Below are positions 1,615-64,000 of a DNA stretch of 64,000 nt, one piece after another. This stretch comes from Parcubacteria group bacterium Gr01-1014_38 (GTDB taxonomy: Bacteria > Patescibacteriota > Andersenbacteria > UBA10190 > CAIZMI01), in NCBI GenBank assembly GCA_007376145.1, contig VMFP01000001.1, positions 122,835 to 186,834 on the forward strand. The letters run 5' to 3'. A model generated the notes under the pieces. That model was not told where the DNA came from, searched no databases, and saw only the letters and a program-made list of their open reading frames with translations. Within the stretch, counting starts at the first letter, position 1, and each line of letters opens with the position of its first letter. The position numbers were made by a program, and so were the translations under genes.

Positions 1615-1632
1615 CGCCTGGGGTGAGGAACT

Positions 1633-1911
1633 CTACCGTGAGCGGATTTCGAAATGAGTAAACTCGCCGGTGGCGAGTTCTTCTGCGACGTCCACCCCCG
1701 TGACCTTTGCACCATCGGGCCCACGGTAACAGAAAGCGCGGAGCACCTCTAGGGTCTCTTCTGCTCCCTCAGCGACCACGTGTACGCCGCCATCCTCACT
1801 GTTACGCACGTAGCCGGTCACGCCGAGCTTCGCGGCGAGTTCCCGGACGCTCCACCGAAACCCAATGCCCTGTACGCGACCGTGAATCGTACAGATCAGG
1901 CGCTTCTGCAT
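1633..1911 (-). CDS. acyP: acylphosphatase
   Basis: Internal start MQKRLICTIHGRVQGIGFRWSV...GYVRNSEDGGVHVVAEG; the VxGxVQGVxFR and GxVxN motifs are typical of acylphosphatase. 92 aa from ATG at 1911; the longer ORF-track N-terminus is Arg-rich junk. Confidence 0.75.
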   Translation of the reverse strand: MQKRLICTIHGRVQGIGFRWSVRELAAKLGVTGYVRNSEDGGVHVVAEGAEETLEVLRAFCYRGPDGAKVTGVDVAEELATGEFTHFEIRSR

Positions 1912-1969
1912 CGTCGGTCCCTCGTATTCCCCCTGTCCTGTGCTCTCTTCCGTCAACCTCCTGCGTGCC

Positions 1970-5674: not shown

Positions 5675-5749
5675 GCCCCCGTGGCGTAATGGCAGCGCAC
5701 GCGCCTTTTAAGCGCTGAGGTCCCAGTTCGAATCTGGGCGGGGGCACCA
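5675..5749 (+). tRNA. tRNA-Lys (anticodon UUU) with encoded CCA
   Basis: Manual fold: acceptor GCCCCCG/CGGGGGC, D-stem GCGT/GCGC, anticodon loop CTTTTAA (anticodon TTT), variable GAGGT, T-arm CCCAG-TTCGAAT-CTGGG, discriminator A then CCA. Confidence 0.85.
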
Positions 5750-33881: not shown

Positions 33882-34412
33882 TTACGGCGTGAGTCGGAAA
33901 TTCAGTCTCGCGATGAAGAGCAGGACGCCGAGGAACCCGATGAGAATGGGGATGGTTGCCGCCAGGAACATAACCGCAGCCGCCGGCTGCGAGGAGCGGA
34001 GTCTGACAGCCAGAAGGGTGTTGCCGGTGACCATCGTCGCCGCAATGCCGGCCAGCCACTGAAATTCGGCACGGGTTCCGAGAAGATCCACGCCCGTGTC
34101 GATGTTGGCGTGAAGCTTCACTCCCTCTAGGGGGAGAGTACGCCAGAGTGCGAAAAACCCTGCGCCGAACAGCACGAAGAGGAGCACGTCGCAGAGCGCG
34201 AGGAGCCGAATGGGTTTCGGGACACTCTGCAGCGTGAGGAGACGCATGAAGGGAGAGAGCATAGGCCATTCCGGCGCCTGCGGCAAGCGGAGTCGAAAGA
34301 CGTTAGGGAAGCTCGGCATAGTCGCAAATCTTCCGGAAATCGCAAAAACGGCAGTGGTGTCCTGGCGTGGGACGGAAATCTCCACTCCGAATCCGCGCCG
34401 CGATGTCCTCAA
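33882..34412 (-). CDS. hypothetical small membrane protein (start uncertain)
   Basis: Three to four hydrophobic helices; sits just upstream of the GT2 gene on the same strand. Confidence 0.4.
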   Translation of the reverse strand: MRTSRRGFGVEISVPRQDTTAVFAISGRFATMPSFPNVFRLRLPQAPEWPMLSPFMRLLTLQSVPKPIRLLALCDVLLFVLFGAGFFALWRTLPLEGVKLHANIDTGVDLLGTRAEFQWLAGIAATMVTGNTLLAVRLRSSQPAAAVMFLAATIPILIGFLGVLLFIARLNFRLTP

Positions 34413-37218
34413 CCCGCTTCACCGTTTCCGCATCCTGTTCCGGCGTGCGGGTGGTTTCCTTCTCTTCCCCCGTTTCCACATACGCGAAGCGTAACCGCGC
34501 TGGTTCGAGCCCGAGCGCTTTCCGTGCCGCGAGGGCATAGATGGAGAGCTGCGTATCGCTCCTCGCGTCTTTTCCCTTCCCCTCCCCGGTTTTGAAATCG
34601 GTAATCAGGACTTTGCCGTGGTCTTTGGTCCGGTCAATCCGGTCAATGCGGCCGGTGACCCGCGTCGTTTCGAGGAGAAACGAAAACGGAATTTCCGCTG
34701 CCAGCGGCGGAACCATCAGGAGTTCCGGGTGTGCAGAGAGGTATGTCTGGAGTGCCGCGCGCCCTGCCTCTTTCCGCGCCGCTTCGTGCTCCGGACTTTC
34801 ATAGCCCTCGGAGATCCAGTGTTGTTCGAACCACGTGAGCACCTCGAGGAGAGAAGGCTTGTGCCCTGAAGCAATCGCCGTTCCGACGCGGTGCAACACC
34901 GCGTGGATCGTGTTGCCAAACGCAAGCGTGTGTTGCGGCCTGGTTGGGACGCGGAGCACGTAATGGAACTCGTACTTTAAGGGACAGGTTTCGTACTCGG
35001 CAATTTTTGAGGCGCTCAAACTGAGCGCACCATCCACGATCCGCTCCGGCGGGGTTGCCACGCGCAGCGGAAGGGAGAGCTGTTCGCTCGGCGACTTTGG
35101 TTCGCCGGTCACGGTGACAGAGGGAATCTGCGCTTCCGCGATGAAGGGCGAGGGTTTCCGGTGCGTCTTGGATCCCGCTGCCATCGTCGACGACGTGACG
35201 ATGAAGCGCTCTTGCGCGCGCGTCATCGCGACGTAGAAAAGGCGGCGCTCTTCGAGGACGTGCATGGTCCGTTCATCCAGGGTCCCCTGGAGCGCGCTGG
35301 CCGGGACAAGCTCCGACGGAAGCTCGAGCAGCCGCCGCCTCCCGCGCGCCGGGTAGCGATCGGCGGTCGCACCAATGACGAAGACAATCGGAAATTCCAA
35401 TCCTTTCGCCGCGTGGACGGTCAGGAGATGCACGGCGTCGGCCTCTGGCGGGAGGTCGGCGGCCGGCGGGCCCTGACCGCTGTCGGAAGCCGCGTCGAGG
35501 AGTTCAAGGAACTCGAGAAAATTCCCGTCAGGCATACCTTGTTCCAGCGCTCGGATGTAGGCGAGAAACGCCTGGAGGTTCGGCAGCACTTCTGGGTGTC
35601 CTTCGCTCTCCTGAATCGCGTGCTTCAAGATGCCGCTGTGTTCGAGAAATTCCAGGTAAACGGTGGACGGGCGGAGCGTCCGGAACGCCGTGAGGTGCCG
35701 CTCGAGGAGTGCGACGAGGCGCGCGAGTCCGTCCCTGCTTGACGTCGCCAGGGTTGCCGACGTCGTCGGCCGCTTCAAGAACGGAAGGACGGCGTCGGGG
35801 TTCTGCCGGAGCTCGCTCAAGAGGCGTGCCCGGTCGGAAGTGCTCACTCCGAGCGCTGGATGCGTGATGAGACGAAACAGCGCGCTGGCGTCGCGCGGAT
35901 CCCCGAGGAGGCGCAGGTATGCCAGAGCATCCTTAACTTCCGGTCGGGCGAGGAGACCGCGCGCTTCGGACACCGTGTGGGGGATGTCACGTCGGAGAAG
36001 CGAGGAAGCGAGATCGCCCGCTTGCGCATTCGTGCGGGCGAGCACCGCCATCTCGCGGTAGGCTTTCCCCTCGTCCACGAGGCGGAGAATCTCCTCCGCC
36101 ACCCACGCGAACTCTTCCTCTTCGGTGGCGAAGTGCCGGTGCTCCACGAGCACTCCCGGCGGTGCAGAGCCTTGACGAACCAAGCGCTTGCTGATGTCTG
36201 CGGTCGCCTCCAGACGGTACGGGTTATTCTGCTGGATGAGTCGGTAGGCGGCGTCTAAGAGTACTTGCGGCGAACGGAAGTTGTCCGTGAGGACCATGAG
36301 TGATGTCTTGGGAAACCGCTCGCGGAACTGGAGGACATTCCCGACGTTAGAGCCGCGGAAGGCAAAGATCGCCTGGTCGTCGTCCGAAGCGACGAAGAGG
36401 TTTCCGGCGGGCCCGGCCAGCAATTCCAGAAGGTGCAACTGCGTCGCATTCGTGTCTTGGAATTCGTCGACGAGGATCTCCGTGAATCGTCCGCGGTACT
36501 TCTGCGCAATCGCCGGGCGCTCCTGGAAGACGCGGATGGTTTCGAGGAGGAGATCGCCGAAGTCGAAGACGCCCTTCTCGCGCTGCAGGGCGACATACGC
36601 GTGGTACACGGCGGCGAGTTCCCGCCAGTGCGCGGAATCTTCCGCGTCCACGCTCGCAACGGTTTCCGCGTGGCGTTCCAGCATCTCGGGCGTGGTCCCC
36701 TGGTCTTTGGCTTGGTTGAAGAATTCGACGAGCGCTTGGACGAATTTGGTCGGGTTGCCTAAGGGGCGGTACCGCGACAGCGGCAAGGAGAAGAGGTTTC
36801 GCTTGAGGAGAAGCCAGGCCTCGGGGGAAGAGAGGATGCGGAATCGAGGGTCGAGACCGATCGCGAATGCTTCTTCGCGCAGGACATATTCCCCGAACCC
36901 GTGGAAGGTTCCGACCCACGGGCGGAAGGCGCTGATGGGGAGCGCGAGGTCGGTTCTCGCCTCGAGTTCGGCAGAGGCCTTTTCGGTGAACGTGAGCGCG
37001 AGGATATTCTGCGGGGGGACGCTTTGGTGGTTCGTGAGCCAGGCGATCCGCTCCACGAGGACCCGTGTTTTGCCGGTTCCCGCTCCGGCGAGCACGAGCG
37101 CTGGTCCCTCGCCGTGCGTGACTGCCGCGCGCTGGGCATCCGTGAGATGCGAGAATTCGCTTGCCTCGGTGCGTTCCTGCGTCCGTGTTCGTGCACGTTG
37201 CTTCCTCGCCATATCCAC
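34303..37218 (-). CDS. UvrD/PcrA-family ATP-dependent helicase fused to a C-terminal PD-(D/E)XK nuclease with Cas4/AddB-like Cys cluster
   Basis: Walker A AGAGTGKT, UvrD motifs (ALTFTEKA, VDEFQDTN, TVHAAKGLEF, VAMTRA); C-terminal IAEYETCPLKYEF ... YVETGEEKE ... CRFCDFRKIC = C-Xn-CxxC-X5-C plus nuclease motif. 971 aa. Confidence 0.85.
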   Translation of the reverse strand: MDMARKQRARTRTQERTEASEFSHLTDAQRAAVTHGEGPALVLAGAGTGKTRVLVERIAWLTNHQSVPPQNILALTFTEKASAELEARTDLALPISAFRPWVGTFHGFGEYVLREEAFAIGLDPRFRILSSPEAWLLLKRNLFSLPLSRYRPLGNPTKFVQALVEFFNQAKDQGTTPEMLERHAETVASVDAEDSAHWRELAAVYHAYVALQREKGVFDFGDLLLETIRVFQERPAIAQKYRGRFTEILVDEFQDTNATQLHLLELLAGPAGNLFVASDDDQAIFAFRGSNVGNVLQFRERFPKTSLMVLTDNFRSPQVLLDAAYRLIQQNNPYRLEATADISKRLVRQGSAPPGVLVEHRHFATEEEEFAWVAEEILRLVDEGKAYREMAVLARTNAQAGDLASSLLRRDIPHTVSEARGLLARPEVKDALAYLRLLGDPRDASALFRLITHPALGVSTSDRARLLSELRQNPDAVLPFLKRPTTSATLATSSRDGLARLVALLERHLTAFRTLRPSTVYLEFLEHSGILKHAIQESEGHPEVLPNLQAFLAYIRALEQGMPDGNFLEFLELLDAASDSGQGPPAADLPPEADAVHLLTVHAAKGLEFPIVFVIGATADRYPARGRRRLLELPSELVPASALQGTLDERTMHVLEERRLFYVAMTRAQERFIVTSSTMAAGSKTHRKPSPFIAEAQIPSVTVTGEPKSPSEQLSLPLRVATPPERIVDGALSLSASKIAEYETCPLKYEFHYVLRVPTRPQHTLAFGNTIHAVLHRVGTAIASGHKPSLLEVLTWFEQHWISEGYESPEHEAARKEAGRAALQTYLSAHPELLMVPPLAAEIPFSFLLETTRVTGRIDRIDRTKDHGKVLITDFKTGEGKGKDARSDTQLSIYALAARKALGLEPARLRFAYVETGEEKETTRTPEQDAETVKRVEDIAARIRSGDFRPTPGHHCRFCDFRKICDYAELP

Positions 37219-53579: not shown

Positions 53580-54766
53580 GGGCGCTCCTGCAATTGCCCG
53601 ACGAGAATGCGGGTGGAGCGGACCGTCTTCGTGAGTCGGGCAAACAGAGCCTCATAGCGATCAGCGATGTCCCGGATGAGGAACGACTGCATGGCGTGGC
53701 GGTTCGTCTCCGCGAAACGCTTCCGAAGGTCCGCATCCGCGAGGAGCACGCGGAGCGCTGACGCGAGTTGGTCCGATCGCTGCGGAGGAGTGAACAGCGC
53801 GTTCTCCCCGGCGCGGAGGATGTCTGTCTGGCCGCCTTGGTCCGTACAGACAATGGGAAGCCCCGCGTACATCGCTTCGAGGAACACGATGCCGAATCCT
53901 TCATGGAGCGAAGCGGAAACAAAGAGGTCGGCGGCTCGAAGGAGCTGCCATTTCCGGTCTTCCGTCACTGCGCCTTCGAACGTGACCTGCGGCCGCACGC
54001 CAAGGCGCTCCGCCGTACCTTCGAGTGGGTGCAGAAGCGGACCATCCCCCATGACATGCAGGTGCACATCCTTTCTTTTCAGGAGCGCGAGAGCCTCGAG
54101 AAGGTCCTTGTGGGCCTTTCGGGGTATGAGACGCCCAACCGTGACGAGGCGCCACGGTGCACCGTGACTCGCGGTGACGGGAGGGAGCACAGCCGGCGGA
54201 ACCAAACCGAGGGGGATGACGGCGAGGTTGTTCGGCGCGCGGTGGTACAAGATTGCGCGCCGTTTCGTATCCTCCGAAATCGCCGTGACCGCGTCCGCGT
54301 GACGGATCACCCACCGTACCACGGCCCGAACCACCGGATTCCGGTGGGCAGCGATTCCCGCCGTGGGATTGGGATCAAAGATATCCGCACCGATGAGCGT
54401 GAGGACCACCGGAATTCGGCGCAGGCGCCCGAGGAGGACTGCGGGGAGTCCCGAAGGAACGGCGAAAAGGGCGTGAATGAGGTCCGGGCGAGTCTTGTTG
54501 GTCGCACGCAGGCCAGCGAGGAGCGCGGACGGAACGAACGTCGCCATGGAACGGAGCGTCGCCACCGGCATCTGACATCGCCCCCACACCGGAACGCGAA
54601 TGATCCGGACGCCGTTGACGACTTCCGCCTTGGGGAGGCCACGGAAGTGCGTCGTGAGGATCGTGACCTCGTTCCGCGCGGCGAATGCCTCCGCGAGATC
54701 CCGATGGGCCACTCCTCCTCCGCCCCCGAGAGGCGGGTATTCGTAATTGATGAGCAGCAGCCTCAT
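53576..54766 (-). CDS. GT4-family glycosyltransferase
   Basis: MRLLLINYEYPPLGGGGGVA N-terminus, C-terminal LHEGFGIVFLEAMYAGLPIV motif. Confidence 0.75.
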   Translation of the reverse strand: MRLLLINYEYPPLGGGGGVAHRDLAEAFAARNEVTILTTHFRGLPKAEVVNGVRIIRVPVWGRCQMPVATLRSMATFVPSALLAGLRATNKTRPDLIHALFAVPSGLPAVLLGRLRRIPVVLTLIGADIFDPNPTAGIAAHRNPVVRAVVRWVIRHADAVTAISEDTKRRAILYHRAPNNLAVIPLGLVPPAVLPPVTASHGAPWRLVTVGRLIPRKAHKDLLEALALLKRKDVHLHVMGDGPLLHPLEGTAERLGVRPQVTFEGAVTEDRKWQLLRAADLFVSASLHEGFGIVFLEAMYAGLPIVCTDQGGQTDILRAGENALFTPPQRSDQLASALRVLLADADLRKRFAETNRHAMQSFLIRDIADRYEALFARLTKTVRSTRILVGQLQERP

Positions 54767-56823
54767 CGCGGGCCTTTTCTCACCGAAGGATTTTCCACAA
54801 AAAGTTCCGAGCCGTCAATGGAGAAGGAGAAGGCATGCGATCCCGGCGCAAGGGTGCCGAGAGGAATGAAGGCGGTTCCATCGGACGACACGGTGACCGG
54901 TGCCGGTCCGGTCGGGGTTTGGAGCTGAATCTTCCGCGTCCTTGGGTCGAGGACGCGGAAGGAGAGCGTGGCGGGAACCGCGTCTCCGCCAAGTACCCGG
55001 ATGGAAAACGTCGCACGGGGTTGAATCTTGACGCGTCGCCGATCTCCAGAACTCGAGGGCACGGCGTCCCACCCTGACCCAGGGACTCCCACCAATGCGG
55101 ACGTTGTTTCGGGCCATGGCGGCACGCGGTAGAGCGTCGTCCCCTCGCCGACGTTCTCTGCATGCAGACCCGCGCCACGGAGCAGCCGGTGGAGGACGTG
55201 GAATTCTGCTGGCGTCACCGCGACCAATCCTTTTGGACTGGAACGGAGTGTCGGCATCCCCATCACGTATTCGTGAATGATCACCGCGATGACTCTCTCG
55301 CTGGCAAGTGCGGCATGGACCATTTCGGCGGGCATCTGGCCGAAGAGCGTCGAACGCTCGAAGTCGTCGGGACGAACGGCGAGGAGCGCACCGACGACAG
55401 GGACGCGGAGCGGAGCTTCGCGCGCTGCCCGATCTTGCACGCGCTCGAAGACGTTGCTGGCGAGAATACGGCGGCGGTGGACCGTGGACGCGTACTGGGC
55501 GCGTGAGGCAACGAGGTAGTCGGTGGCGGCAGGAATTTCGAGGAGGAGTCCTGCTGGTCCAGCGGTGAGCGTGGTGGAGAATTGGGAGATCGTCGCTTCC
55601 TGCACCGGGAAGGTGCTTGGAAGAATTTCCAGCACGAGCGCTCCCGCGAGAAGAAACGCGGCGGCCCGCGGGAGCCTGCTGACGCCGATGCTCGCCAGCA
55701 GCGGGAGAGCCAACGCCGGCAAGACGAGAAATCGGTTTACCGTTCGAACCGCGGAGAACACAGGGAACTCGTCATAGAGCTGTGCGCCAAGCGAGGTGCG
55801 CGGCGCAAACGCAAGGAGGAGCCCGGCGACGACCAGCGAGCCGAGGAGCGCGAGGTGCTGCCAGCGACCTTCCCGCCAGAGTCTCCGCACACCCACGACC
55901 GCGACCACCGGCGCGAGGAGGCCGAGAGTATGGACGTAGTCGGCCACGGCCTGGCGCGGAGTCCCATACCGATTCGGAGAGTGGCGAAAGAGATGGAAGG
56001 TCGGAGGGGAGAGTATCGTTTCGACCGTTGGTGCAAACCGCCGTCGCTGTTCCGAACCGAGGTTGAAGGCGGAGTCGGCGCGCGATGCTTTCTTCAGCTC
56101 TTCTCGGAAGGGGAACATTCCAAGCGCGCCGACGAGGAAAAGGAAGGTGAGGGCGAGGATGATTCCTTGGCGAGTCCGAAGCGTCTGCACAGCCTGGTGC
56201 CAGAAGATGGCTATCGTCAGTGCGGCGGCAAGGAGTGTCGCAAGAAACAGCATATGCTCGGTCCACGACGTCCCGACGAACGCCGCAGCAGCGACGAGCG
56301 TTCGTGGGAGTGACGGACGCTGGAGCAGCCACAGGAGCGCTGCCATGCTGAGTGGAATCCAGAAGAGTTGCATGGCGCCGAAATGCCCGAGGCTCTGCGC
56401 GATGCGGTACGGCGCGAACGCCGTGAGGAACCCGGCGACCGCCGCTGGTCCACGCGCGATTCCCAAGCGTCGAGCGAGTCCATACGTGGCGAGTGCCGTC
56501 AGCGGGAATTGGAGAATCCACACGAGGTTGTATCCCAGAGGATCGCCGAAGACTCCGTGGAGCGGGATCCACGGCAGCGGGCCAAAGTTCCTCACGGGGT
56601 CGTCGGCAATGGTGAGCGTCCGGCGGGACAGCGCTTCGGTGAAGGCGGAGGAACGCCAGAGCGTCTGATACGGATCGCCGCCGAGCCCGAGCACCGACGT
56701 CCGGAGATTCGGCAGGTGCGTGCCGATGAGGAGCAATGCCCCGATGAGCGCCAGCGCGCACAGCGCGAGCGGAACCAGGACACGACGTCGGGCCTCTGCT
56801 TGGAAAAGCGGGAGCGCCTGCAC
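54763..56823 (-). CDS. large polytopic membrane protein (686 aa), probable glycosylation-locus component (YfhO/GT-C-like)
   Basis: About 12 TM helices in N-terminal two-thirds then a soluble C-terminal beta-rich domain; translationally coupled to flanking GTs. Confidence 0.55.
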   Translation of the reverse strand: MQALPLFQAEARRRVLVPLALCALALIGALLLIGTHLPNLRTSVLGLGGDPYQTLWRSSAFTEALSRRTLTIADDPVRNFGPLPWIPLHGVFGDPLGYNLVWILQFPLTALATYGLARRLGIARGPAAVAGFLTAFAPYRIAQSLGHFGAMQLFWIPLSMAALLWLLQRPSLPRTLVAAAAFVGTSWTEHMLFLATLLAAALTIAIFWHQAVQTLRTRQGIILALTFLFLVGALGMFPFREELKKASRADSAFNLGSEQRRRFAPTVETILSPPTFHLFRHSPNRYGTPRQAVADYVHTLGLLAPVVAVVGVRRLWREGRWQHLALLGSLVVAGLLLAFAPRTSLGAQLYDEFPVFSAVRTVNRFLVLPALALPLLASIGVSRLPRAAAFLLAGALVLEILPSTFPVQEATISQFSTTLTAGPAGLLLEIPAATDYLVASRAQYASTVHRRRILASNVFERVQDRAAREAPLRVPVVGALLAVRPDDFERSTLFGQMPAEMVHAALASERVIAVIIHEYVMGMPTLRSSPKGLVAVTPAEFHVLHRLLRGAGLHAENVGEGTTLYRVPPWPETTSALVGVPGSGWDAVPSSSGDRRRVKIQPRATFSIRVLGGDAVPATLSFRVLDPRTRKIQLQTPTGPAPVTVSSDGTAFIPLGTLAPGSHAFSFSIDGSELFVENPSVRKGPR

Positions 56824-56825
56824 GG

Positions 56826-58901
56826 TTACTCCATCACTGGTCGGAGTCCAAGGAGCCCGCGAGAGCGATGCGTGGTAAGGAGGTCGCGCGGAGAGACCGT
56901 TCGGTTTCCAACGCCAAAGTGAGGAGCCGATTTCTCCTGCGGGGCAGCGCGGAGTGTTGGCGCCTCACCAGGGCTCGTTCCTTCGGTGGTGAGCAGCGTG
57001 ATGAATGTTCCCGGCTCTTGAACCAGCAGCGGCTCAAGAGAGAAACGCACCCACTGGTTATCGTCTTCGCCGCGGATCGGGAGACGATTTGCGCGGACAT
57101 CGGGTCCCTCCACGGTCTGGCGGAGACGGAGGACGAACGTTCCCATATCCGCGCGTCCGGAATAGGTTGCGACGAGTGTCTCCACGCCACGGAGCGTTCC
57201 GGCGGAGACGGGAAGCTCCGCCACCACCACTGATTCCTGCGTTAGCTCGCCGAGAATACCCGTATAGGCCGGCTGGTGGTATACCCATGCGTAGGGCAGC
57301 CCGTTCACCGTCGCGGTGAAGACGGGCGTCCGTCGGCGGTAGTATTCGTCGATGAAATCGTTCGCGGGGTGATCGGGAGACCGGCCAAACATGTTGCGGT
57401 AGAGCACGACGTATCCAACCCGGAGTTGATCTCGGGCACTCAAATGAAAGACTGGCCGGTGGACGAGCGCCTTGAGCTCTTCTGGGTACCAGGAGGCCAC
57501 GGCGATCTTCCCGCCGTCATCGAGTTGATTGAGGTACCGCGCAACCTGATCGAGTCCCTCCCCCCAGCCGAGCTCCTGACTGAAGCTTGGTGGAAACAAG
57601 CGGTTATAGTACGCGAGCGCATACGGGCCAAGGAAGAGAAGTTCTCCCGCCAGCGGCAGGACGGCAAGGAGGAACACCGTTTTTGCCGCTCGGGCTTCCG
57701 TCCACTGCGGACGAACACGGCTGACGAGCGCCGCCAGCCCGATCACGCCGAGGAGGTTCACCACGGGGAACACGGGAAGCAGATAGCGGTCGCCCTTCTT
57801 GGCCCCAAACGTCATGGCCGCGGTGAAGAGCACGACGAACGCGAGAAGGATCCAAAGCGTACGGCGGGATGTCCCGCTCAGCGTCGCGAGCTTTGGCATG
57901 CTTACCGGCAGAAGCAGGAGAAGGGCGGCCAACCCGATCAGTGAAGGGATGGTCGTGCGTGCGAGCAGCGTGCTGGGGTAATGCCAGGGCTTAATGCTGT
58001 ACGCATCGGCCATGTGGTGCGGGGTAGAGAAAGCCGCCGAAAGGTCACGCTGAACAATTTTGACGTTTCCCACCGGATCCGGTACCCAGAGCAATCCCGG
58101 CCACAAGACCAGGGTCGTCGCCACGATGATCACCAGCCACTGCCCGAGAAGGCGAAGGCGGACTCGCCCCTCTTCCCTCCCCCAGGCCTGCCGATCCGCA
58201 AACAGGCTGAGTGTTGCCATGGGCAGCAGAATCAACCCAGGGATCTTCGAAAGGATCGCGAGTGCGCCAAAGATTCCCGACCAGACGAGCGCGGCGGAGG
58301 GCACGGTGTGCGGATGTTCCTCTCTCCCCTGCATTGCGGCGAGAAAGAGGATGAGCGAGAGTGCGGTAAAGCCCGCGAGGAGCGCGTCGACATGCACCAC
58401 CTTGCTGTAGCCGATCAGGAACGGATCGAGCGCGATCACGAGTGCCGCTGCACGTGCCACCCAAGGTCTCGTCAGGCGCCGCAGAGCAAGGAACAGCGCG
58501 GCGACCAGTACGCTGTTGAGGAGCGCGAACGTCACCTGGGTCCCCTGGATGAAGAGTTGGAGCGACTCTGCGGTGAACGGGATATTTTTTAGGCGTGCAA
58601 TGATCCGCACGCTGATTCCCACCAGCCACAGGGTGGGAATGCCCGGATGCGTCGTCTGCAAGGTCTCATTGAAGTGAAACTCCTGGACCGCTTGGAGGAA
58701 ATTCACGCCTCGCCCCATCCAGCTTTTCTCGTCTGCGGTCAGGAACAGGCCAATACCGATGAGGCGTGGCGCCAGGGCAATGAGGAAGAGTACCCCGGTC
58801 TCACCAAGGAGTTTCCGACGTTCTGGAGACTGCAGCCATCGCCGCATTCGCACCGAGTGTACCACCGGTGAGGCCTCCCTGCCCTTTGAGGCGCGGGACA
58901 T
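56826..58901 (-). CDS. GT-C glycosyltransferase, ArnT/PMT-like (GT39/GT83), paralog 1
   Basis: First-loop DE motif LTADEKSWMGRG, about 11 TM helices, C-terminal soluble domain (...DNQWVRFSLEPL...). Start taken at ATG 58901; alternative GTG at 58919. Confidence 0.7.
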   Translation of the reverse strand: MSRASKGREASPVVHSVRMRRWLQSPERRKLLGETGVLFLIALAPRLIGIGLFLTADEKSWMGRGVNFLQAVQEFHFNETLQTTHPGIPTLWLVGISVRIIARLKNIPFTAESLQLFIQGTQVTFALLNSVLVAALFLALRRLTRPWVARAAALVIALDPFLIGYSKVVHVDALLAGFTALSLILFLAAMQGREEHPHTVPSAALVWSGIFGALAILSKIPGLILLPMATLSLFADRQAWGREEGRVRLRLLGQWLVIIVATTLVLWPGLLWVPDPVGNVKIVQRDLSAAFSTPHHMADAYSIKPWHYPSTLLARTTIPSLIGLAALLLLLPVSMPKLATLSGTSRRTLWILLAFVVLFTAAMTFGAKKGDRYLLPVFPVVNLLGVIGLAALVSRVRPQWTEARAAKTVFLLAVLPLAGELLFLGPYALAYYNRLFPPSFSQELGWGEGLDQVARYLNQLDDGGKIAVASWYPEELKALVHRPVFHLSARDQLRVGYVVLYRNMFGRSPDHPANDFIDEYYRRRTPVFTATVNGLPYAWVYHQPAYTGILGELTQESVVVAELPVSAGTLRGVETLVATYSGRADMGTFVLRLRQTVEGPDVRANRLPIRGEDDNQWVRFSLEPLLVQEPGTFITLLTTEGTSPGEAPTLRAAPQEKSAPHFGVGNRTVSPRDLLTTHRSRGLLGLRPVME

Positions 58902-59663
58902 CCTGCATGGCTCTACCACGCGAAAGACCGATTGTCAAACTCTTGACACGCGCTACGGACGGTACCATACTCGCTTCCACTGGTGTTCTTTGTCATAAAG
59001 TCGTGCCGGTCAGACGGTGACGAAACTCCGAGGAGACGCGCAAGCGTCAAGAGAGTCCCGGAGGTGACCGTTCAAGCCGGTCGAATGCGCGCAGAAGGGT
59101 AGGAATAACATTTCACCTTCCAGGTGTTGCCCTCGTCGCACACAGCAGGACTCGATGAGGGAAATTCCCCACGCCTGAAGGAGGTAGGTGGAACAGTCCA
59201 AACTGCGTACACGCTTGTCTCTTCCGGCCGGAAACGACAAGCGGCGCTACGCGGGGGAGTAGCCGTCGAACGGAGAATACTGCGTGTATGCAGGAAGTTC
59301 AGTCTCAAAAGGGCTCGCGGACTCTCGTGGCATATTCGTGAACCTCATGAATATGTCTAGTGGCATATTCATATAAACCTCATGAATATGACGCGGAAGG
59401 AGTACTGCCCTGGACGGACTTCTTGATATACCGCATGAAGGGAATATTCCCCTCGACGCTTGCGAAGAGAGGAGGAACCTGCCCCTTCTAAGACTAAACC
59501 TATTCTTCTGCGCGATTTGTCCTCTTTCATTGTCGTTCCCAGGCACCATTGTCGTTCCCAGACATCAGGGCATTTGCTCTCTTTATGTCCGTCTGGCCGG
59601 GGCATTTGCTCTCTTTTGTCTGGGAGCACCCCCGCTCGTCCCCATCGGCGAGCGGGATTTTTC

Positions 59664-61649
59664 TTATTCCGAGTGCGAGGCGTCTCCTTGGTAGACGAGC
59701 GCGTATGCGAGATCCCCTTCTGCGAGAGACGCCGCCCGCTTCTCTCCCGACCGGAGCGGTCGTCGGAGCACCACCAGGCGTCCCGGGAGGATGTCGTTCG
59801 GTTGATACCGAACGGTGACGGCATTGCCGGGCTCCCCGGAGGGCGAAGTGAGCGCAACGTAGTAGGTCACCCCCTTAGAGTTCGGGAGCGGTTCAAAGCG
59901 AATTTCTTTCCAGGCGTTGTCCTCCAAACGGCTCACGCCTATCCGGACCGTGCGCAGATCGGCACCGTCGGGATTCTCGCGGACGTGGAGGAGAAGCTCC
60001 CCCCGATTGCTCCGAGACGAGAACGTCGCAAAGACCAGCCGTACGCCGCTCAATCCATCCGATTCCGCGACGACTGTTTGGCCGACCTCGACCGTTGTCG
60101 GGGCATTCCCGGTACCGCGCTCCGGCGCGCCGGCACGGACAATTTCTCCTACGTGCTTTGGAAAGCGATCCACAGAATCTCGCGCGTAGATCCAGGCCAT
60201 CTCGAGACCGACAACGCGGATTACCGCTACCGGTTCCACGTTTGCAAATTCCTCGAGGACCCTCGTCGGACCGGAATCCGCCGGTCGCCCCCGCATATTT
60301 CGATAGGTCACCACGTAATCCACGCGCGCATCATCGCGGCTGCTTAAGCTCATGGTTGTCCCGCGGAAAAACTCCCGGAAGATGATGGGATACCAGGTCG
60401 CCACCTGGAGTTCTGGAGCAAGGGGATGGGCATTGAGTACTGCCGCAGCCCGCTCGAGTCCTTCGCCCCACCCCGCTTGGGTGGGCTCTTCCTTCGGACT
60501 GAAGGGACTGACGTACGCCAGGGCATAGGGACTGAGCTGAAGGTTGAGAACGGCAAGAACGCAGATGGTGCCGGCGGCGAGAAGTTTTCCGAAGCGATCT
60601 CGGCGGATGAGTTCACCGAGGCTGACCCCCGCGAAGACATCGAGCACGAGAAGTGCCGGAAGAAGGTAGCGATCGGCGCGCTTCTCTACGAGATTCACGA
60701 AGAGGAAAAACCCTCCGAAGAAGAGGAGGAATACCAATGCCTCCCGGCGCCGGTGGGCAGCGCGAAGACATGCGAGCGCTCCCAGTGCGGCGAACAGGAG
60801 AGTGACCGGCGTCGTGCGGGCAAGAAGCGCACGGGCGTAGAAGAGATTGTCGCGCGTCCGGACTTCCGCCGATTCACCGAAGTGTGACAGCGTAACGACG
60901 GACTGGACGTCGCGAGCAGCGTATCGGACATTCGGGAGAACGTTCAGCCACATGGAGGGCCACAGAATCAGGAAGGTCGCGGTGGTAACACCGACCCAGG
61001 TCGCCGTATCGCGAATCCATCGAGCCCGCATGTCTGGAACGAGCAGAAACACCCCGGCGGCGAAGGGGACGAGGAAGACCGCCGGGAGTTTCGTGAGCAG
61101 CGCGAGCCCCCCGAGAAATCCGGAAAGAACAAGAATCCGGCGTGCGCCTTGGCGGACGTACCAGAGGGCGGTAAGGACCGAGAGGAGCATGAGAATCGCG
61201 AGGAGGGCATCCACATGCGCGAGCTGGGAATACCCAACGAAAAACGGATTCAGGGTAAGGAGCACGCCAGCACCAAGACCACTGCGGACACCCCAGAGTC
61301 GTGCCACGAGGGCAGCAGCCATCCCGGTCCCAAGGGATACCGCGATGGCGATAGGAAGCTTCCCCGCGGAACGGAAGGAGCCGACGGTCGGGCTTTCCAT
61401 GCGCTCTCCCGTCAGCCATTCTCGCGCTTCAATGCCCGCACCGATGAGAAGCATCGCGGTGACGCCGGGATGGGTTCCCTGGAAGGTGCCGCCGGGATCC
61501 CCACGGCGGAGCGCAGTCGTGAACGACTGCGCGCGGAACATCCACTGCGGTTCGTCCGCGGTGAGGATCGCGCCGAGACCCTGCAGTCGAACGAGCAGCG
61601 CGAGCGTCGCCGTGATAAGTCCTACCATGACGAGCGGACGGAATGCCAT
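59664..61649 (-). CDS. GT-C glycosyltransferase, ArnT/PMT-like, paralog 2
   Basis: ILTADEPQWMFRAQSF DE motif, multi-TM core, C-terminal domain ...LRTVRIGVSRLEDNAWKEIRFEPLPNSKGVTYYVALTSPSGEPGNAVTVRY. Confidence 0.7.
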   Translation of the reverse strand: MAFRPLVMVGLITATLALLVRLQGLGAILTADEPQWMFRAQSFTTALRRGDPGGTFQGTHPGVTAMLLIGAGIEAREWLTGERMESPTVGSFRSAGKLPIAIAVSLGTGMAAALVARLWGVRSGLGAGVLLTLNPFFVGYSQLAHVDALLAILMLLSVLTALWYVRQGARRILVLSGFLGGLALLTKLPAVFLVPFAAGVFLLVPDMRARWIRDTATWVGVTTATFLILWPSMWLNVLPNVRYAARDVQSVVTLSHFGESAEVRTRDNLFYARALLARTTPVTLLFAALGALACLRAAHRRREALVFLLFFGGFFLFVNLVEKRADRYLLPALLVLDVFAGVSLGELIRRDRFGKLLAAGTICVLAVLNLQLSPYALAYVSPFSPKEEPTQAGWGEGLERAAAVLNAHPLAPELQVATWYPIIFREFFRGTTMSLSSRDDARVDYVVTYRNMRGRPADSGPTRVLEEFANVEPVAVIRVVGLEMAWIYARDSVDRFPKHVGEIVRAGAPERGTGNAPTTVEVGQTVVAESDGLSGVRLVFATFSSRSNRGELLLHVRENPDGADLRTVRIGVSRLEDNAWKEIRFEPLPNSKGVTYYVALTSPSGEPGNAVTVRYQPNDILPGRLVVLRRPLRSGEKRAASLAEGDLAYALVYQGDASHSE

Positions 61650-61660: not shown

Positions 61661-63445
61661 CTACTCCCGCCCACCGCGCGACTCGACTGAGCTCGTCGAA
61701 GTCCGGCGGAGAATCGTAATGGGGTTCCCGAGATTTTCGATTTCGGCGATGGGTTCGAACTCCGCGTTCACGAACTGTTCAATCTCGGGGTACTCCCGGA
61801 AGTAGGAAAAGGCGGTCAGCTGCTCATGGACCACCCACCGAATGTCCGAGCGGACGGCGGCGACCATCGCTTCTACGGGCGCCATGTAGATGTTGCGAAC
61901 CTGCGGCTCGATATAGCCGTAGGCGTAGTGGGTCGGGTGGGCGACGTCAAACAAGACCCGGTGCCCGGAGAGTACGGGAAGAGCGACGGCAGCCGTGAGG
62001 ATGGGCTCTTCCTTTGGAACCTGGCGTCGGAGAACCGCCGCGGCTTCCTCCAGCGACGAACGGTCGAATGTTCCGGTATGCGCGAAGACGTATCCGGAAC
62101 GAGCCGAGGCGTACGCGCCCCACGCCACGAGTACTCCGAGGAGAACCAGGACGGGAGCGCGGCGCCGGTACTCGGCGGCAAGCCAGGCGCCTCCGAGCGC
62201 AGCGAGGAGGGTGAGCGGCGGGAGAAACTCCGCGAGGTAGTTCGCAGTAAACTTAATCCACGAGGCGTAGAGGACCGTGGTTCCCAAGAGCCAGAGGAGC
62301 GGAACACCGACAGCAGGCAGGATTGTCTTCCGTAATGCCGGAACCTCCTCCTCTGGGCTCGGGGCCTGTTCTCGTGAGGAGACAGCAAGGATGGCGATGC
62401 TTGCGCTCATCACGAGCCAGAACGGCCAGAGGGCAAACGCGAAGTGCTCCGGACGCTCGTACGCTTGAAGGAAGCGACCAGAGAACCAGACCGCGGCCAG
62501 CGGGATGAGCCATCCCACGCGCGACCAGCGTCGGCCCCGCGCGGTGGAACGGAGAATCTGCTCCATGCTTGCGCCAAGACCGACGAGCGCAAGGAACAAC
62601 ACTGGCAGTCCCTCACGGAAGATCGGGAGCACTCCCTGAATAAGGGCGCGTCGGCGCTCTTCGGCAGTCGCGGTCGTGTCTGGATCGATTGCCGCGACGT
62701 CGACCCCAAGGAAGTACCGGACACCGGGCGTTCCGTACCAGTGCTGGATTTCCGCCGTGAGTCCGCCAAAGGCAATGAGAAATCCCACGAGCGTCCAGCC
62801 GACGCGTTGGAGGCGTGCGCGCCACGGGAGCGTCGAGAAGAGCAGAATCCCCAGAGCGGGGAGCGCGGCCGCGGCGGATGTCTTTCGTGCGCCGAACGCG
62901 AGTGCCAAGAGGACGCCGGCAAGGACGAGGAGCACCCACCCAAGGATCCTCCGCCGCGCTCGGTTCTCTTGAGGATTCACCAGACTGTGCGCGAACAACG
63001 CCAACCCGCCGGCGAGGAGCAAGAGTTGGAGCGGTTGCGCATGAAGGTAGATGCTGAAAATCACCGGAGCAGCAGGAAGGAGCCACAGACCGGCGATGCG
63101 CAGCGATGGGAGGCCTTTTCCATGAGCATTGCGGCCCAGCGCGAGCAGAGGAAGAAGCGTGAGAAGACTCGCGACGATGCTCACGAGCCGACTCGTGAGC
63201 ATCGTCGGTTCGGGCTTGAGACGGAGAAAGGCGGCGACGACCTGAACCACCGTCGGGGTTTTTAAGATTCCATCTCCTCCCGGGAGCCGTCCGTGAGAGA
63301 ACGTCCACGCGTCGTAGAGCATGCTCCCCTCGTCGTTGGTGACGGGTAAACGTTCGGCATACAGGAGACGGAAGAAGAACCCGCCGAGGAGAAGCACCGC
63401 AAGCATGAAAAGGAGCACCGGCCGGCGGACCCGAGGGCGGATCAT
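61661..63445 (-). CDS. GT-C glycosyltransferase, ArnT/PMT-like, paralog 3 (internal ATG 63445 with AGGAG RBS; reading frame stays open upstream to the window edge)
   Basis: PVTNDEGSMLYDAW DE motif and multi-TM core after MIRPRVRRPVLLFML; GTAGGAGCCCCCCCG precedes ATG 63445. Confidence 0.6.
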   Translation of the reverse strand: MIRPRVRRPVLLFMLAVLLLGGFFFRLLYAERLPVTNDEGSMLYDAWTFSHGRLPGGDGILKTPTVVQVVAAFLRLKPEPTMLTSRLVSIVASLLTLLPLLALGRNAHGKGLPSLRIAGLWLLPAAPVIFSIYLHAQPLQLLLLAGGLALFAHSLVNPQENRARRRILGWVLLVLAGVLLALAFGARKTSAAAALPALGILLFSTLPWRARLQRVGWTLVGFLIAFGGLTAEIQHWYGTPGVRYFLGVDVAAIDPDTTATAEERRRALIQGVLPIFREGLPVLFLALVGLGASMEQILRSTARGRRWSRVGWLIPLAAVWFSGRFLQAYERPEHFAFALWPFWLVMSASIAILAVSSREQAPSPEEEVPALRKTILPAVGVPLLWLLGTTVLYASWIKFTANYLAEFLPPLTLLAALGGAWLAAEYRRRAPVLVLLGVLVAWGAYASARSGYVFAHTGTFDRSSLEEAAAVLRRQVPKEEPILTAAVALPVLSGHRVLFDVAHPTHYAYGYIEPQVRNIYMAPVEAMVAAVRSDIRWVVHEQLTAFSYFREYPEIEQFVNAEFEPIAEIENLGNPITILRRTSTSSVESRGGRE

Positions 63446-64000
63446 CGGGGGGGCTCCTACGGCTGCCAGCGCGAGAGCGACTGCCGCTCCGCCGGTCAGC
63501 GAGAAGACGGTGACGCGCCGCGTTTCTTTGCGCATGAATCGCACGGCGTCGAGGACTGCGAGACGCACGCGTTCCCCGAGCGAGATGCGATGCACGACCG
63601 CAAAGGCGAGATCGGCGCTCCGCATCTCCGCTTGCTGAACGGCCTCGGGCGCATTCCGCTCTCCGTGGAATACGTAGAGGCTGGAGGGTCCGCCTTTCAC
63701 GTATGGATTTCCTGCACTGAAATCAACGGTGATCGCGTCTCCCGGTCGAGACTGCGGAGAGCGGAGCGACGCGTAATAGGTCTGCCCCGAGGAGTCCAGG
63801 ACTGGCGCAAACGTGAACGTGTACCATTCGTGGTCCCGGAACTGGCGGGCCGGAACGCGAGCCGTTCGGAGTGCGGTGGGAGCATCGGGACTGCGGCGCA
63901 GCTCAAACACGACTTCCCCCGTTGCTCGCCGGTTGCTGTACGTCGCAATCTGGAACGCGACGCCGCGTAAGGATGGGCGCAGCGATTCAAACGTTTGGCC
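63446..64000 (-). CDS. C-terminal domain of an upstream GT-C paralog (paralog 4, N-terminus beyond window) continuing in frame, with no stop, into paralog 3
   Basis: Own translation to the window edge: GQTFESLRPSLRGVAFQIATYSNRRATGEV-VFELRR...LRTARVPARQFRDHEWYTFTFAPVLDSSGQTYYASLRSPQSRPGDAITVDF, which aligns with the C-terminal domains of paralogs 1 and 2. Confidence 0.5.

What the first reader, a model, noticed from the sequence alone, without database searches (positions are those of the whole stretch)
58920..59663. 740-bp noncoding island inside the glycosylation operon with tandem palindromic AT-rich sites and paired direct repeats
Most genes in the locus are tightly coupled, yet GT-C2 and GT-C1 are separated by 740 bp with no convincing ORF. 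It contains: (i) two tandem copies of an AT-rich palindromic site, TGGCATATTCgtgaacctcATGAATATG (59329-59356) and TGGCATATTCatataaacctcATGAATATG (59362-59391), that look like a dimeric transcription-factor operator; (ii) two copies of cattgtcgttcccag (59528-59543, 59547-59562); (iii) two exact copies of gggcatttgctctcttt (59568-59584, 59600-59616); and (iv) a TGTCAAactcTTGACA palindrome (58933-58948) just upstream of GT-C1. This could be a regulatory hub or a small RNA gene.
Basis: seen in the sequence. Interest (0 to 1): 0.55.

Follow-up and report, generated by a model that had tools for sequence, protein, structure and literature searches.

The report
Antisense structured RNA gene inside operon
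The seemingly empty 0.8-kb gap between two glycosyltransferase genes most likely holds a separately transcribed, highly folded ~685-nt non-coding RNA gene on the opposite strand; its layout recurs at the same spot in related uncultured (Parcubacteria-labelled) bacteria, it matches no catalogued RNA family, and its function is unknown.

Summary
They are best read as parts of an RNA gene, not DNA operators. The window + strand is antisense to the operon. It carries a sigma-70-type promoter (TTGACA-17-CATACT, 58943-58971) and an intrinsic terminator (59631-59662), bracketing a ~685-nt stretch that folds far better than shuffles (z -7.0, against -2.7 for the other strand).

The same gap occurs between the orthologous GT-C genes in 8 related lineages (10 units; two loci carry tandem copies). 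Every unit has:
- the TTGTCAA-N3-5-TTGAC promoter palindrome;
- a pyrimidine-rich 5' leader;
- a 12-24-bp long-range helix (P1), with compensatory changes at 10 of 15 pairs;
- A-rich junction strands;
- a terminator on the same strand.

Nine of the ten also have a pyrimidine-rich linker after P1.

Between two relatives, RNA core windows are 85-93% identical while four-fold degenerate sites are 42% identical. There is no Rfam match, no conserved ORF and no plasmid or phage match. The AT-rich palindromes and both direct-repeat pairs are window-specific tandem duplications that form hairpins. Only the TGTCAA/TTGACA palindrome is conserved.

No expression data exist. Function is unknown; a trans-acting or RNP role is my guess.

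The parts
58932..58948 (.). Conserved palindrome TTGTCAA-ACTC-TTGACA. It supplies the -35 hexamer of the RNA promoter on the + strand (58943-58948) and a mirror TTGACA on the - strand (58938-58933) facing the downstream GT-C gene.
   Evidence: Found once in the window, with 0.02 expected. Present at the head of every related unit, including the second unit of tandem pairs and the short L010 variant, with a spacer of 3-5 nt.
58943..58971 (+). Sigma-70-type promoter TTGACA-17 nt-CATACT. The predicted start of transcription is about 58978 (+/-3).
   Evidence: 10 of 12 consensus matches. TTGAC is invariant in the aligned units. A weaker xAxAxT-like box sits 17 nt downstream in most units, but not in L010. 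Other genes in the window use canonical TTGACA/TATAAT-type promoters. The start site is inferred, not measured.
58978..59662 (+). Predicted primary transcript, ~685 nt: a structured non-coding RNA.
   Evidence: For the 744-nt island (58920-59663), MFE is -306.7 kcal/mol with z = -7.04 on the + strand, against z = -2.71 on the - strand. The 686-nt transcript itself has MFE -291.7. No Rfam match. No coding signal.
58978..59000 (+). 5' leader, 73% pyrimidine over its first 22 nt (..GGUGUUCUUUGUCAU..), predicted mostly unpaired.
   Evidence: No stable fold on its own. Unpaired probability is 0.60, against 0.35 for the whole RNA. A UGUUC/UUGUC-type motif lies near the predicted 5' end in the relatives. 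TGTTC occurs 14 times against 5.0 expected, z = 4.3.
59001..59084 (+). P0: a long irregular 5' hairpin.
   Evidence: MFE helices. A long hairpin in this position is predicted in 8 of 10 related units and is absent in L006 and L028. The P0 of the L004b/L005b pair shows 3 compensatory pairs.
59088..59103 (+). P1 5' strand, CGCGCAGAAGGGUAGG.
   Evidence: Pairs with 59499-59514 over 16 bp, including 2 G.U pairs. Unpaired probability in the ensemble is 0.00. Covariation across lineages is shown.
59104..59498 (+). P1-enclosed multi-helix domain of 395 nt. It begins with the A-rich junction AAUAAC and ends with the junction AAGACUAAA (59490-59498).
   Evidence: Domain size ranges from 127 to 406 nt among the nine units measured. 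The junction strands are conserved as ..GG|A(G/A)AUA.. and ..GAYNAAA|CC... Interior helices are listed.
59323..59390 (+). It folds either as two hairpins or as one extended hairpin inside the variable domain.
   Evidence: TRF reports period 35, 2.0 copies. Fold energies are -15.5, -10.8 and -31.7 kcal/mol, with z from -3.1 to -5.9. Absent from relatives. No recurrence in the window.
59499..59514 (+). P1 3' strand, CCUAUUCUUCUGCGCG.
   Evidence: See the P1 5' strand. A descriptor built on this helix finds only the known units in 505 kb.
59515..59553 (+). Pyrimidine-rich single-stranded linker after P1.
   Evidence: 78% pyrimidine with unpaired probability 0.63. No stable fold alone. A comparable linker (72-83% pyrimidine) follows P1 in 9 of 10 units. 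The duplication itself is window-specific.
59554..59627 (+). Penultimate hairpin (CCCAGACA...UGUCUGGG).
   Evidence: -36.1 kcal/mol, z = -5.5; helices. A CCCAGGC-type hairpin precedes the terminator in L002 and L006.
59631..59662 (+). Intrinsic terminator: CCCGCUCGUC-loop-GGCGAGCGGG followed by AUUUUU. It ends 1 nt before the stop codon (59664-59666) of the convergent GT-C gene.
   Evidence: 10-bp stem with 8 G-C pairs and a T-run, on the + strand only; -20.5 kcal/mol. The stem base CCCGCUNG/CNAGCGGG is shared by 9 of 10 related units. Other terminator-like hairpins in the window have different stems. No U-run follows the hairpin on the gene strand.
58847..58918 (-). Region between the palindrome and the likely start of the downstream GT-C gene (ATG at 58847). 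It holds a TGGTAGAGC box (58918-58910), 14 nt after the mirror TTGACA, and a TGGTACACT box (58864-58856), exactly 8 nt before the ATG.
   Evidence: The distal box is TTGACA-N14-TG(G/T)-TA(G/C)A(G/C)C in win, L002, L003, L006, L004 and L005; it is present also in L011 by my reading of the printed sequence. The proximal box is invariant and is also present in the RNA-less loci L007 and L009. Reading these boxes as promoters is inference.

Best explanation
The island is a gene for a large structured non-coding RNA, transcribed from the window + strand, antisense to the glycosylation operon.

RNA polymerase starts about 7 nt after the CATACT box of a TTGACA-17-CATACT promoter and stops at the intrinsic terminator at 59631-59662. 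The ~685-nt product has this layout:
- a short pyrimidine-rich 5' leader;
- a long hairpin (P0);
- a 16-bp long-range helix (P1) that closes a large, variable multi-helix domain through conserved A-rich junction strands;
- a pyrimidine-rich single-stranded linker;
- a penultimate hairpin and the terminator.

Their TGTCAA/TTGACA palindrome is its promoter.

Shown here: promoter and terminator signals, strand-specific fold stability, conserved synteny and architecture, P1 covariation, and sequence constraint above the near-neutral level.

Inferred, with about 0.3 confidence in this part: the RNA acts as a product, either as a trans-acting riboregulator or as a protein-binding scaffold or sponge. 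It would use the exposed pyrimidine-rich leader and linker (the recurring UUGUYC..UUCC-type motif) held on a stable structured core. Its expression would be coupled to the downstream GT-C genes through the shared back-to-back -35 region.
For: Transcription signals
- The promoter matches 10 of 12 consensus positions, and the terminator is on the + strand only.
- TTGAC is invariant, and a terminator lies on the same strand in all 10 related units.
- Other terminator-like hairpins in the window have different stems.

Structure
- z = -7.0 on the + strand against -2.7 on the - strand.
- Nine related units score z from -4.0 to -8.0 on this strand, always better than on the opposite strand.

Conservation
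- A 0.5-1.1-kb gap lies between the orthologous GT-C genes in L002, L003, L004, L005, L006, L011 and L028.
- L004 and L005 carry two tandem units, each with its own promoter and terminator.

P1 helix
- It is predicted in every unit.
- Of 15 aligned pairs, 10 have changes on both sides. 90% of cells are paired, against 26-51% in slid registers, and 0 of 500 shuffles reach the observed values.
- The G.U pairs fit only this strand.

Close pairs
- Consensus-fold energies are -110.8 and -148.8 kcal/mol, against -58+/-6 and -77+/-7 for column-shuffled alignments.
- 23 and 29 pairs use G.U and would break on the other strand.
- The L004b/L005b structure is 100% paired, against 36-48% when slid.

Constraint
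- Between L004 and L005, four-fold degenerate sites are 41.7% identical. RNA windows reach 85-93% (unit b core) and 88-100% (unit a terminator region).

Specificity
- A descriptor (perfect 12-bp long-range helix, AA|CC-type junction, TTGAC upstream, terminator downstream) finds only known units in 505 kb, with no false positives.

Not coding
- No frame-consistent conserved ORF and no recurrent SD-preceded small ORF.

Accessible segments
- The linker is 72-83% pyrimidine with unpaired probability 0.46-0.84, against a mean of 0.33-0.37.
Against: - There are no expression data; the start and end of the transcript are predicted only.
- The -10 boxes are weak in several lineages.
- Only 10 units in 8 lineages are available, all from metagenome assemblies.
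- Apart from the P1 region, the junctions and the terminator, the lineages cannot be aligned. MFE interiors differ in branch number, so a common core beyond P1 is not demonstrated.
- In the two-sequence alignments, the raw counts of compensatory pairs are not clearly above column-shuffle controls: 8 against a mean of 6.75 (maximum 11), and 16 against a mean of 10.4 (maximum 14).
- The RNA is dispensable at this locus. L007, L008 and L009 have a 40-47-nt gap, and L010 has a short element with no fold signal (z -1.3).
- No target or partner was found. A duplex scan of the window gave nothing beyond the RNA's own antisense.
- Enrichment of the pyrimidine motif is modest (z 4.3-5.0 among 1024-4096 k-mers).
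Confidence: 0.7

Rival explanations
1. Cis-acting transcription unit. What matters is the act of convergent and divergent transcription, not the RNA product. The antisense gene would insulate the operon: it collides with or pairs to read-through transcripts from the upstream GT-C gene, and it competes with the back-to-back promoter of the downstream GT-C gene. This would uncouple the two halves of the operon, in the manner of GadY or an excludon.
For: - The gene sits between two co-oriented genes, on the opposite strand.
- The upstream gene has no U-run terminator on its own strand in any locus, so read-through across the antisense of the RNA is plausible.
- The mirror TTGACA followed by a TG-TA-A-C box faces the downstream gene in most lineages.
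- Relatives without the RNA have the two genes 40-47 nt apart.
Against: - Interior RNA sequence is held at 85-93% identity while four-fold sites are at 42%.
- Helices are maintained through G.U-compatible and compensatory changes on one strand only.
- Fold z-scores of -4 to -8 recur in every lineage. None of this is needed for simple interference.
- The RNA does not overlap either coding sequence.
- The second unit of the tandem pairs keeps the palindrome without a divergent gene.
- This rival is not exclusive of the best explanation.
Confidence: 0.2
2. DNA-level regulatory hub. The tandem AT-rich palindromes would be operators for a dimeric transcription factor, and the other repeats further protein-binding sites controlling the GT-C genes.
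For: - The palindromes and repeats are real and non-random.
- The TTGTCAA..TTGAC palindrome is conserved.
Against: - The AT-rich sites and both direct repeats are absent from every related unit.
- They are absent from the rest of the window.
- They lie 380-700 bp from the downstream gene's start, inside a transcribed, terminator-bounded unit.
- They form stable RNA hairpins.
- The spacer of the conserved palindrome varies from 3 to 5 nt, which is unusual for a dimer operator. No second copy exists in the window even with 3 mismatches allowed.
Confidence: 0.06
3. Decaying remnant of a deleted gene or of an inserted mobile or repeat element, with no function.
For: - The element is present in some relatives and absent in others.
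- There are local tandem duplications.
- G+C is lower than in the flanks (0.49-0.59 against 0.60-0.67).
Against: - Position and architecture are kept across lineages whose flanking protein is only 54-76% identical.
- Sequence conservation is well above that of four-fold sites.
- P1 covaries.
- No residual ORF similarity.
- Single copy in the window.
- No match in plasmid or phage collections or viral contigs.
Confidence: 0.04
4. A long structured leader or riboswitch on the minus strand that controls the downstream GT-C gene.
For: A P1-closed multi-helix junction followed by a hairpin resembles riboswitch anatomy.
Against: - The fold signal is weaker on the minus strand in every unit.
- The G.U pairs become A.C mismatches on that strand.
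- The terminator's T-run is on the + strand only.
- The conserved TTGAC and the leader point away from the GT-C gene.
- The interior is not sequence-conserved, as an aptamer would be.
- No Rfam riboswitch match.
Confidence: 0.03

Closest known systems
Large 'ornate' bacterial ncRNAs of unknown or recently emerging function (OLE, ROOL, GOLLD, raiA/ModT)
   Same: - Independently transcribed.
- Several hundred nucleotides long.
- Multi-helix junctions, with far more structure than chance.
- Found by comparative analysis of long intergenic regions.
- Function not obvious from context.

(PMC12286853, PMC11706538 and PMC12265935 for what those classes are.)
   Different: - No match to any of their Rfam models.
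- Primary sequence is much less conserved here: only P1, the junction strands and the terminator base are shared between lineages.
- Distribution is narrow: one Parcubacteria-labelled clade, always in one operon.
- No associated protein gene.
Cis-encoded antisense RNAs between operon genes (GadY between gadX and gadW; excludon-type long antisense RNAs). This comparison rests on my own knowledge.
   Same: Encoded on the opposite strand in the spacer between two co-oriented genes. It could pair with read-through operon mRNA and split its expression.
   Different: - Much larger, and selected for its own fold on one strand.
- Does not overlap either coding sequence.
- Read-through of the operon across it is not shown.
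Multi-site sponge RNAs (CsrB/RsmZ for CsrA; CrcZ for Hfq/Crc). This comparison rests on my own knowledge.
   Same: Short motifs are repeated in exposed segments or hairpins of a stable RNA, and their copy number changes by local duplication. The window RNA has three such duplications.
   Different: The recurring motif is pyrimidine-rich (UUGUYC..UUCC), not GGA or CA-rich. Its enrichment is modest, and no binding protein is known.
Transcriptional riboswitches
   Same: A promoter is followed by a P1-closed junction domain and then an intrinsic terminator on the same strand.
   Different: - No gene follows in that orientation.
- The P1-enclosed domain varies from 127 to 406 nt and is not sequence-conserved.
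- I found no antiterminator pairing common to all lineages.

Membership tests
Any Rfam 15 family (4227 models, including OLE, ROOL, GOLLD, HEARO, raiA, 6S, RNase P, tmRNA, SRP, riboswitches and group I/II introns) | Covariance-model score at or above the family's gathering threshold | tested here: not met
   The only hit at gathering score in the window is a tRNA at 5675-5746. In the island, the best sub-threshold hits are 13.5-16.6 bits at E 1.4-6.5, and they are terminator-like or lie outside the island. No consistent weak hit appears across six related loci.
Independent bacterial ncRNA gene (sRNA-type transcription unit) | Own promoter on the RNA strand | tested here: met
   TTGACA-17-CATACT, 10 of 12 matches. 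TTGAC is conserved at the head of all 10 units. This is a sequence prediction only.
Independent bacterial ncRNA gene (sRNA-type transcription unit) | Rho-independent terminator on the same strand | tested here: met
   10-bp G+C-rich stem with a U-run at 59631-59662. A hairpin on the same strand ends every related unit; in L005b it is followed by CTATTTC rather than a T-run.
Independent bacterial ncRNA gene (sRNA-type transcription unit) | Detected transcript of defined length | not testable with these tools
   No transcriptome data are available here.
Conserved structured RNA | Base pairs maintained by compensatory substitutions across homologues | tested here: met
   For P1, 10 of 15 pairs change on both sides and 0 of 500 shuffles reach the observed values. 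For the other helices, only within-pair support is available, and that structure was derived from the same sequences.
Conserved structured RNA | A common secondary structure for the whole molecule across all lineages | tested here: inconclusive
   The skeleton is shared: leader, P1, junction strands and terminator in all 10 units, the linker in 9 and P0 in 8. The interiors cannot be aligned, and MFE branch patterns differ.
   The AT-rich palindromes are absent from relatives and from the rest of the window. The rest of the genome could not be searched.
Cis-antisense regulator (GadY/excludon type) | Overlap with, or proven pairing to, the transcript of the opposite strand | not testable with these tools
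   There is no overlap with either coding sequence. Read-through of the operon across the island is plausible, because the gene strand lacks a U-run terminator, but it is not shown.
Riboswitch / cis-regulatory leader | A conserved aptamer upstream of a regulated gene on the same strand | tested here: not met
   No gene lies downstream on the + strand; the next feature is the 3' end of a convergent gene. The interior is not sequence-conserved.
Interspersed repeat / MITE-type element | Multiple dispersed copies with terminal inverted repeats | tested here: not met
   Single copy in 64 kb, and no similarity elsewhere in the held loci. No plasmid, phage or viral match. The whole genome was not available.
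Small-protein gene / type I toxin | A conserved short ORF with a ribosome-binding site | tested here: not met
   Similarities between close pairs jump between frames and strands. No recurrent SD-preceded ORF and no hydrophobic peptide.

The most novel reading that the evidence does not exclude
This is a previously undescribed class of large (0.4-0.7 kb) structured ncRNA, confined to a lineage of Parcubacteria-labelled (candidate phyla radiation) bacteria. It occurs as two paralogous types: type a has a CUCGCAG-type P1 and type b a GCAGCAAGC-type P1. Both are present in tandem in some genomes and reciprocally lost in others. On this reading the RNA works as a product, either as a ribonucleoprotein scaffold or as a riboregulator using exposed pyrimidine-rich arms, to control the cell-surface glycosylation genes in which it is embedded.
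Probability: 0.4. Interest if true: 0.65.

Novelty: new member of a known kind. Interest (0 to 1): 0.55.

Why it matters
Conserved structured RNAs of several hundred nucleotides are rare in bacteria. The ones studied so far have turned out to be catalysts, RNP cores or unusual assemblies.

The organisms here carry Parcubacteria and Saccharibacteria (candidate phyla radiation) labels. As far as I know, such bacteria have reduced genomes. In my literature searches I found no catalogue of their regulatory RNAs.

An RNA gene held under stronger constraint than synonymous sites, sometimes duplicated, and always sitting inside a GT-C glycosyltransferase cluster would be a concrete handle on how these bacteria regulate their surface glycans.

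It also shows that an apparently empty gap in an operon can hide an antisense gene. Repeats that look like operators may instead be RNA hairpins created by local duplication.

Tried and rejected
- **Rfam.** I ran it at gathering score on the whole window, and at E<=10 on the island and on six related loci. Nothing relevant came back.
- **Direct alignment of the window island to the first relative.** It is essentially random outside the terminator.
- **Metagenome scan.** I used the most conserved 19-mer, GGACKAAACCCGCTTGCTG. All 15 hits lacked the P1 partner, the promoter palindrome and any flanking resemblance; from the flanks they read to me as coding sequence, several encoding ..LDETRLL... 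The same pattern gave 0 hits in viral contigs.
- **Plasmid and phage collections.** No match.
- **Coding potential.** Six-frame ORF comparison and SD-preceded small ORFs gave no conserved peptide.
- **Target search.** I computed duplex energies of the leader, linker and 19-nt repeat against the whole window. Only the RNA's own antisense stands out.
- **Regulon search in the window** for the AT-rich half-site, both direct repeats and the promoter palindrome gave no further copies.
- **Riboswitch-style alternative pairing.** The P1 5' strand can pair with the terminator 5' arm in L003, L006 and L011, but not in the window, L002 or L004a. I rejected it as a family feature.
- **Anti-Shine-Dalgarno mimicry.** A CCUCC motif is present in the tail of only 4 of 9 units by my reading, so this stays speculative.
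- **Compensatory-pair counts in two-sequence alignments.** These were not clearly better than column-shuffle controls, so I rely on consensus energy, strand asymmetry and P1 instead.
- **L003/L011 alignment.** MAFFT misaligned the 5' halves, so only the 3' tail is usable.
- **Literature searches** for a described RNA of this kind found nothing.
Full report
**Observation.** The genes around the finding lie on the minus strand. A PMT_2/GT-C protein is encoded at 59664-61649 and another at 56826-58919. The gene caller used for the public contig starts the second gene at 58847, so the non-coding island is 58848-59663, or 816 nt.

None of the AT-rich palindromes, the 15-mer or the 17-mer recurs elsewhere in the 64-kb window.

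**What the + strand shows.** The + strand is antisense to the operon. A consensus scan finds TTGACA-17 nt-CATACT at 58943-58971. It also finds a 10-bp G+C-rich hairpin followed by a T-run at 59631-59662.
- The T-run exists on this strand only.
- On the gene strand the hairpin is followed by GGUGCUCCC.
- The island folds at -306.7 kcal/mol, z = -7.0 against dinucleotide shuffles; its reverse complement gives z = -2.7.
- Rfam gives nothing at gathering score and nothing meaningful at E<=10.

**Relatives.** The window is a 245-kb metagenome contig. NCBI names the window's upstream GT-C protein as from a 'Parcubacteria group bacterium Gr01-1014_..' MAG. The window also carries secA, dnaK, dnaB, cysS and aspS, so it is chromosomal.

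Using homologues of the upstream GT-C protein, I fetched the same operon from other assemblies.
- A large gap between the two GT-C genes is present in L003, L011, L004, L005, L002 (L012 is the same sequence), L006 and L028. Their flanking protein is 76, 75, 71, 70, 67, 64 and 54% identical to the window's.
- L010 (54%) has a 339-nt gap.
- L007, L008 and L009 (57-59%) have only 40-47 nt.

**Shared anatomy.** Read on the strand equivalent to the window + strand, each gap holds one unit, or two tandem units in L004 and L005. Each unit shares the same anatomy:
- TTGTCAA-N3-5-TTGAC, with a weaker xAxAxT-type box 17 nt after TTGAC in most units;
- a pyrimidine-rich start containing UGUUC/UUGUC;
- usually a long hairpin (P0);
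- a 12-24-bp long-range helix (P1) whose 5' strand ends ..GG|A(G/A)AUA and whose 3' strand is preceded by ..GAYNAAA|CC;
- an interior of 127-406 nt;
- a pyrimidine-rich linker (absent in L028);
- a hairpin and a terminator.

The terminator stem base is CCCGCUNG/CNAGCGGG in 9 of 10 units. Other terminator-like hairpins in the window have unrelated stems.

**Is the structure selected?** P1 differs in sequence between lineages yet stays complementary. Examples are AAGGGUAGG/CCUAUUCUU, UGAGUGGG/CCCACUCA, CAAGCAGGGA/UCCCUGCUUG, CAAGCGGG/CCCGCUUG and AGUGUCGAGG/CCUUGACACU.

I built a hand-registered alignment of eight distinct P1 sequences (A3). In it the interior domain is replaced by a GAAA loop and the one bulged U of L002 is removed.
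- 10 of 15 pairs show changes on both sides.
- 90% of cells are paired, against 26-51% in slid registers.
- No shuffle out of 500 reaches the observed values.

All related units except the short L010 element fold with z from -4.0 to -8.0 on this strand, always better than on the opposite strand.

For the two alignable pairs, L004a/L005a and L004b/L005b:
- Consensus-fold energies are -110.8 and -148.8 kcal/mol, against -58+/-6 and -77+/-7 for column-shuffled alignments, and -88.8 and -105.3 for the opposite strand.
- 23 and 29 pairs use G.U in at least one sequence and would break on the other strand.
- The L004b/L005b structure is 100% paired, against 36-48% when slid.

One caveat applies. The raw number of compensatory pairs in these two-sequence alignments is not clearly above column-shuffle controls, and the structure was derived from the same sequences. 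I therefore give weight to energy, strand asymmetry and P1.

**Constraint.** Between L004 and L005 the flanking GT-C gene is 77% identical in protein, but only 41.7% identical at 324 four-fold degenerate sites. RNA windows reach 85-93% in the core of unit b and 88-100% in the terminator region of unit a. Both tandem copies are therefore under purifying selection well above the near-neutral level.

**Coding and mobility.**
- Six-frame comparison finds only short matches that jump between frames and strands.
- No SD-preceded small ORF recurs.
- There is no second copy in the window or the loci, and no match in the plasmid, phage or viral collections.
- A descriptor requiring a perfect 12-bp long-range helix, the AA|CC-type junction, TTGAC upstream and a terminator downstream finds only known units in 505 kb, with no false positives.

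- The AT-rich palindromes are one 35-nt unit duplicated in tandem, inside the variable P1 domain. They fold as two hairpins (-15.5 and -10.8 kcal/mol) or one extended hairpin (-31.7 kcal/mol).
- The CATTGTCGTTCCCAG pair is a 19-nt tandem duplication in the pyrimidine-rich linker.
- The GGGCATTTGCTCTCTTT pair lies in the penultimate hairpin, where the two copies cross-pair.
- None of these three is present in relatives.
- The TGTCAA-N4-TTGACA palindrome is the conserved element: it is the -35 region of the RNA promoter. Its mirror half faces the downstream GT-C gene and is followed 14 nt later by TG(G/T)-TA(G/C)A(G/C)C in most lineages.

**Two paralogous types.** P1 and the junctions fall into two types:
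- type a (CUCGCAG...): the window, L002, L004a and L005a;
- type b (GCAGCAAGC...): L003, L011, L006, L004b and L005b.

L004 and L005 carry both types in tandem, while the other lineages keep one or the other. This suggests an old duplication followed by reciprocal loss. That is an inference from ten units.

**Mechanism.** What is shown is a promoter-to-terminator unit on the + strand whose folded architecture and parts of whose sequence are under selection. What it does is not shown. My preferred reading, at about 0.3, is a product-level role. A stable core would present two exposed pyrimidine-rich segments for pairing with purine-rich RNA or for binding a protein:
- the leader, with unpaired probability 0.27-0.76;
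- the linker, with unpaired probability 0.46-0.84 and 72-83% pyrimidine, against a mean unpaired probability of 0.33-0.37 for the whole RNA.

Transcription would be coupled to the GT-C genes through the back-to-back -35 region.

The main rival, at about 0.2 and not exclusive, is a cis effect of convergent or divergent transcription that splits the operon. It fits the lack of a terminator for the upstream gene on its own strand. It does not explain the constraint on the RNA body.

A scan for targets inside the window found nothing. CCUCC-like motifs occur in only some tails. I found no riboswitch-type alternative pairing common to all lineages.

**Comparison with known systems.** It works most like an independently transcribed structured ncRNA. 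By size and folding it resembles the large RNAs of unknown function (OLE, ROOL, GOLLD, raiA), but it matches none of their models and is much less conserved in sequence. By position it resembles antisense RNAs such as GadY, but it overlaps no coding sequence. Literature searches found no description of it.

I therefore file it as a new family within a known kind. The evidence is limited to ten units from metagenome assemblies, and there are no expression data.

Noticed in passing
window 58856-58864 (minus strand); also L002, L003, L005, L006, L007, L009, L010 just upstream of the downstream GT-C gene: An invariant TG(G/C)TACACT box lies exactly 8 nt before the ATG of the downstream GT-C gene in every locus listed, including those without the RNA. 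It is either an internal extended -10 promoter giving a nearly leaderless mRNA, or a 6-codon N-terminal extension (M-V/L-H-S-x-x-M). Invariance at its synonymous positions favours a nucleotide-level signal.
   Followed up: partly
L004 5954-7005 and L005 2741-3884: These two loci each hold two tandem RNA units (types a and b), each with its own promoter palindrome and terminator. Other lineages keep only type a or only type b, which suggests an old duplication followed by reciprocal loss.
   Followed up: partly
L010 6167-6505: This is a short (339-nt) version of the gap. It keeps the TGTCAA-CAC-TTGAC palindrome and a terminator-like end, but shows no fold signal (z -1.3). It may be a degenerate relic or a different small RNA.
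   Followed up: partly
L002 versus L012: The intergenic RNA region printed for L012 reads the same as that of L002, although one record is labelled 'Candidatus Saccharibacteria' and the other 'Parcubacteria group bacterium Gr01-1014_106'. The taxonomic labels of these MAGs are not reliable. The window's G+C is about 0.6 around the island.
   Followed up: no
window 59006-59017/59589-59600 and 59039-59050/59453-59464: Two 12-nt Watson-Crick complementarities cross the P1 helix, so they could be pseudoknots or alternative folds. Counting one further nested helix, there are three such helices, against 0.5 expected in shuffles (maximum 3 in 40 shuffles).
   Followed up: partly
window 54763-56823 and 61661-63910 (minus strand): These two large operon proteins (686 and 749 aa) have no Pfam match. 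Their counterparts are conserved next to the GT-C genes in the related loci.
   Followed up: no
window 34303-37218 (minus strand): A 971-aa PcrA/UvrD-like helicase carries a C-terminal Cas4-like (PD-(D/E)XK) nuclease segment (residues 853-966).
   Followed up: no
window 3187-4575 (minus strand): The aspartyl-tRNA synthetase is only 462 aa and matches the 590-position bacterial profile in two stretches, so it probably lacks the usual insertion domain.
   Followed up: no
L013-L027 (metagenome hits): The 19-mer GGACGAAACCCGCTTGCTG occurs by chance in what read as high-G+C protein-coding genes; in several, the surrounding sequence encodes ..LDETRLL.. Exact-pattern scans with about 19 specified bases therefore still return only false positives for this RNA.
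   Followed up: yes
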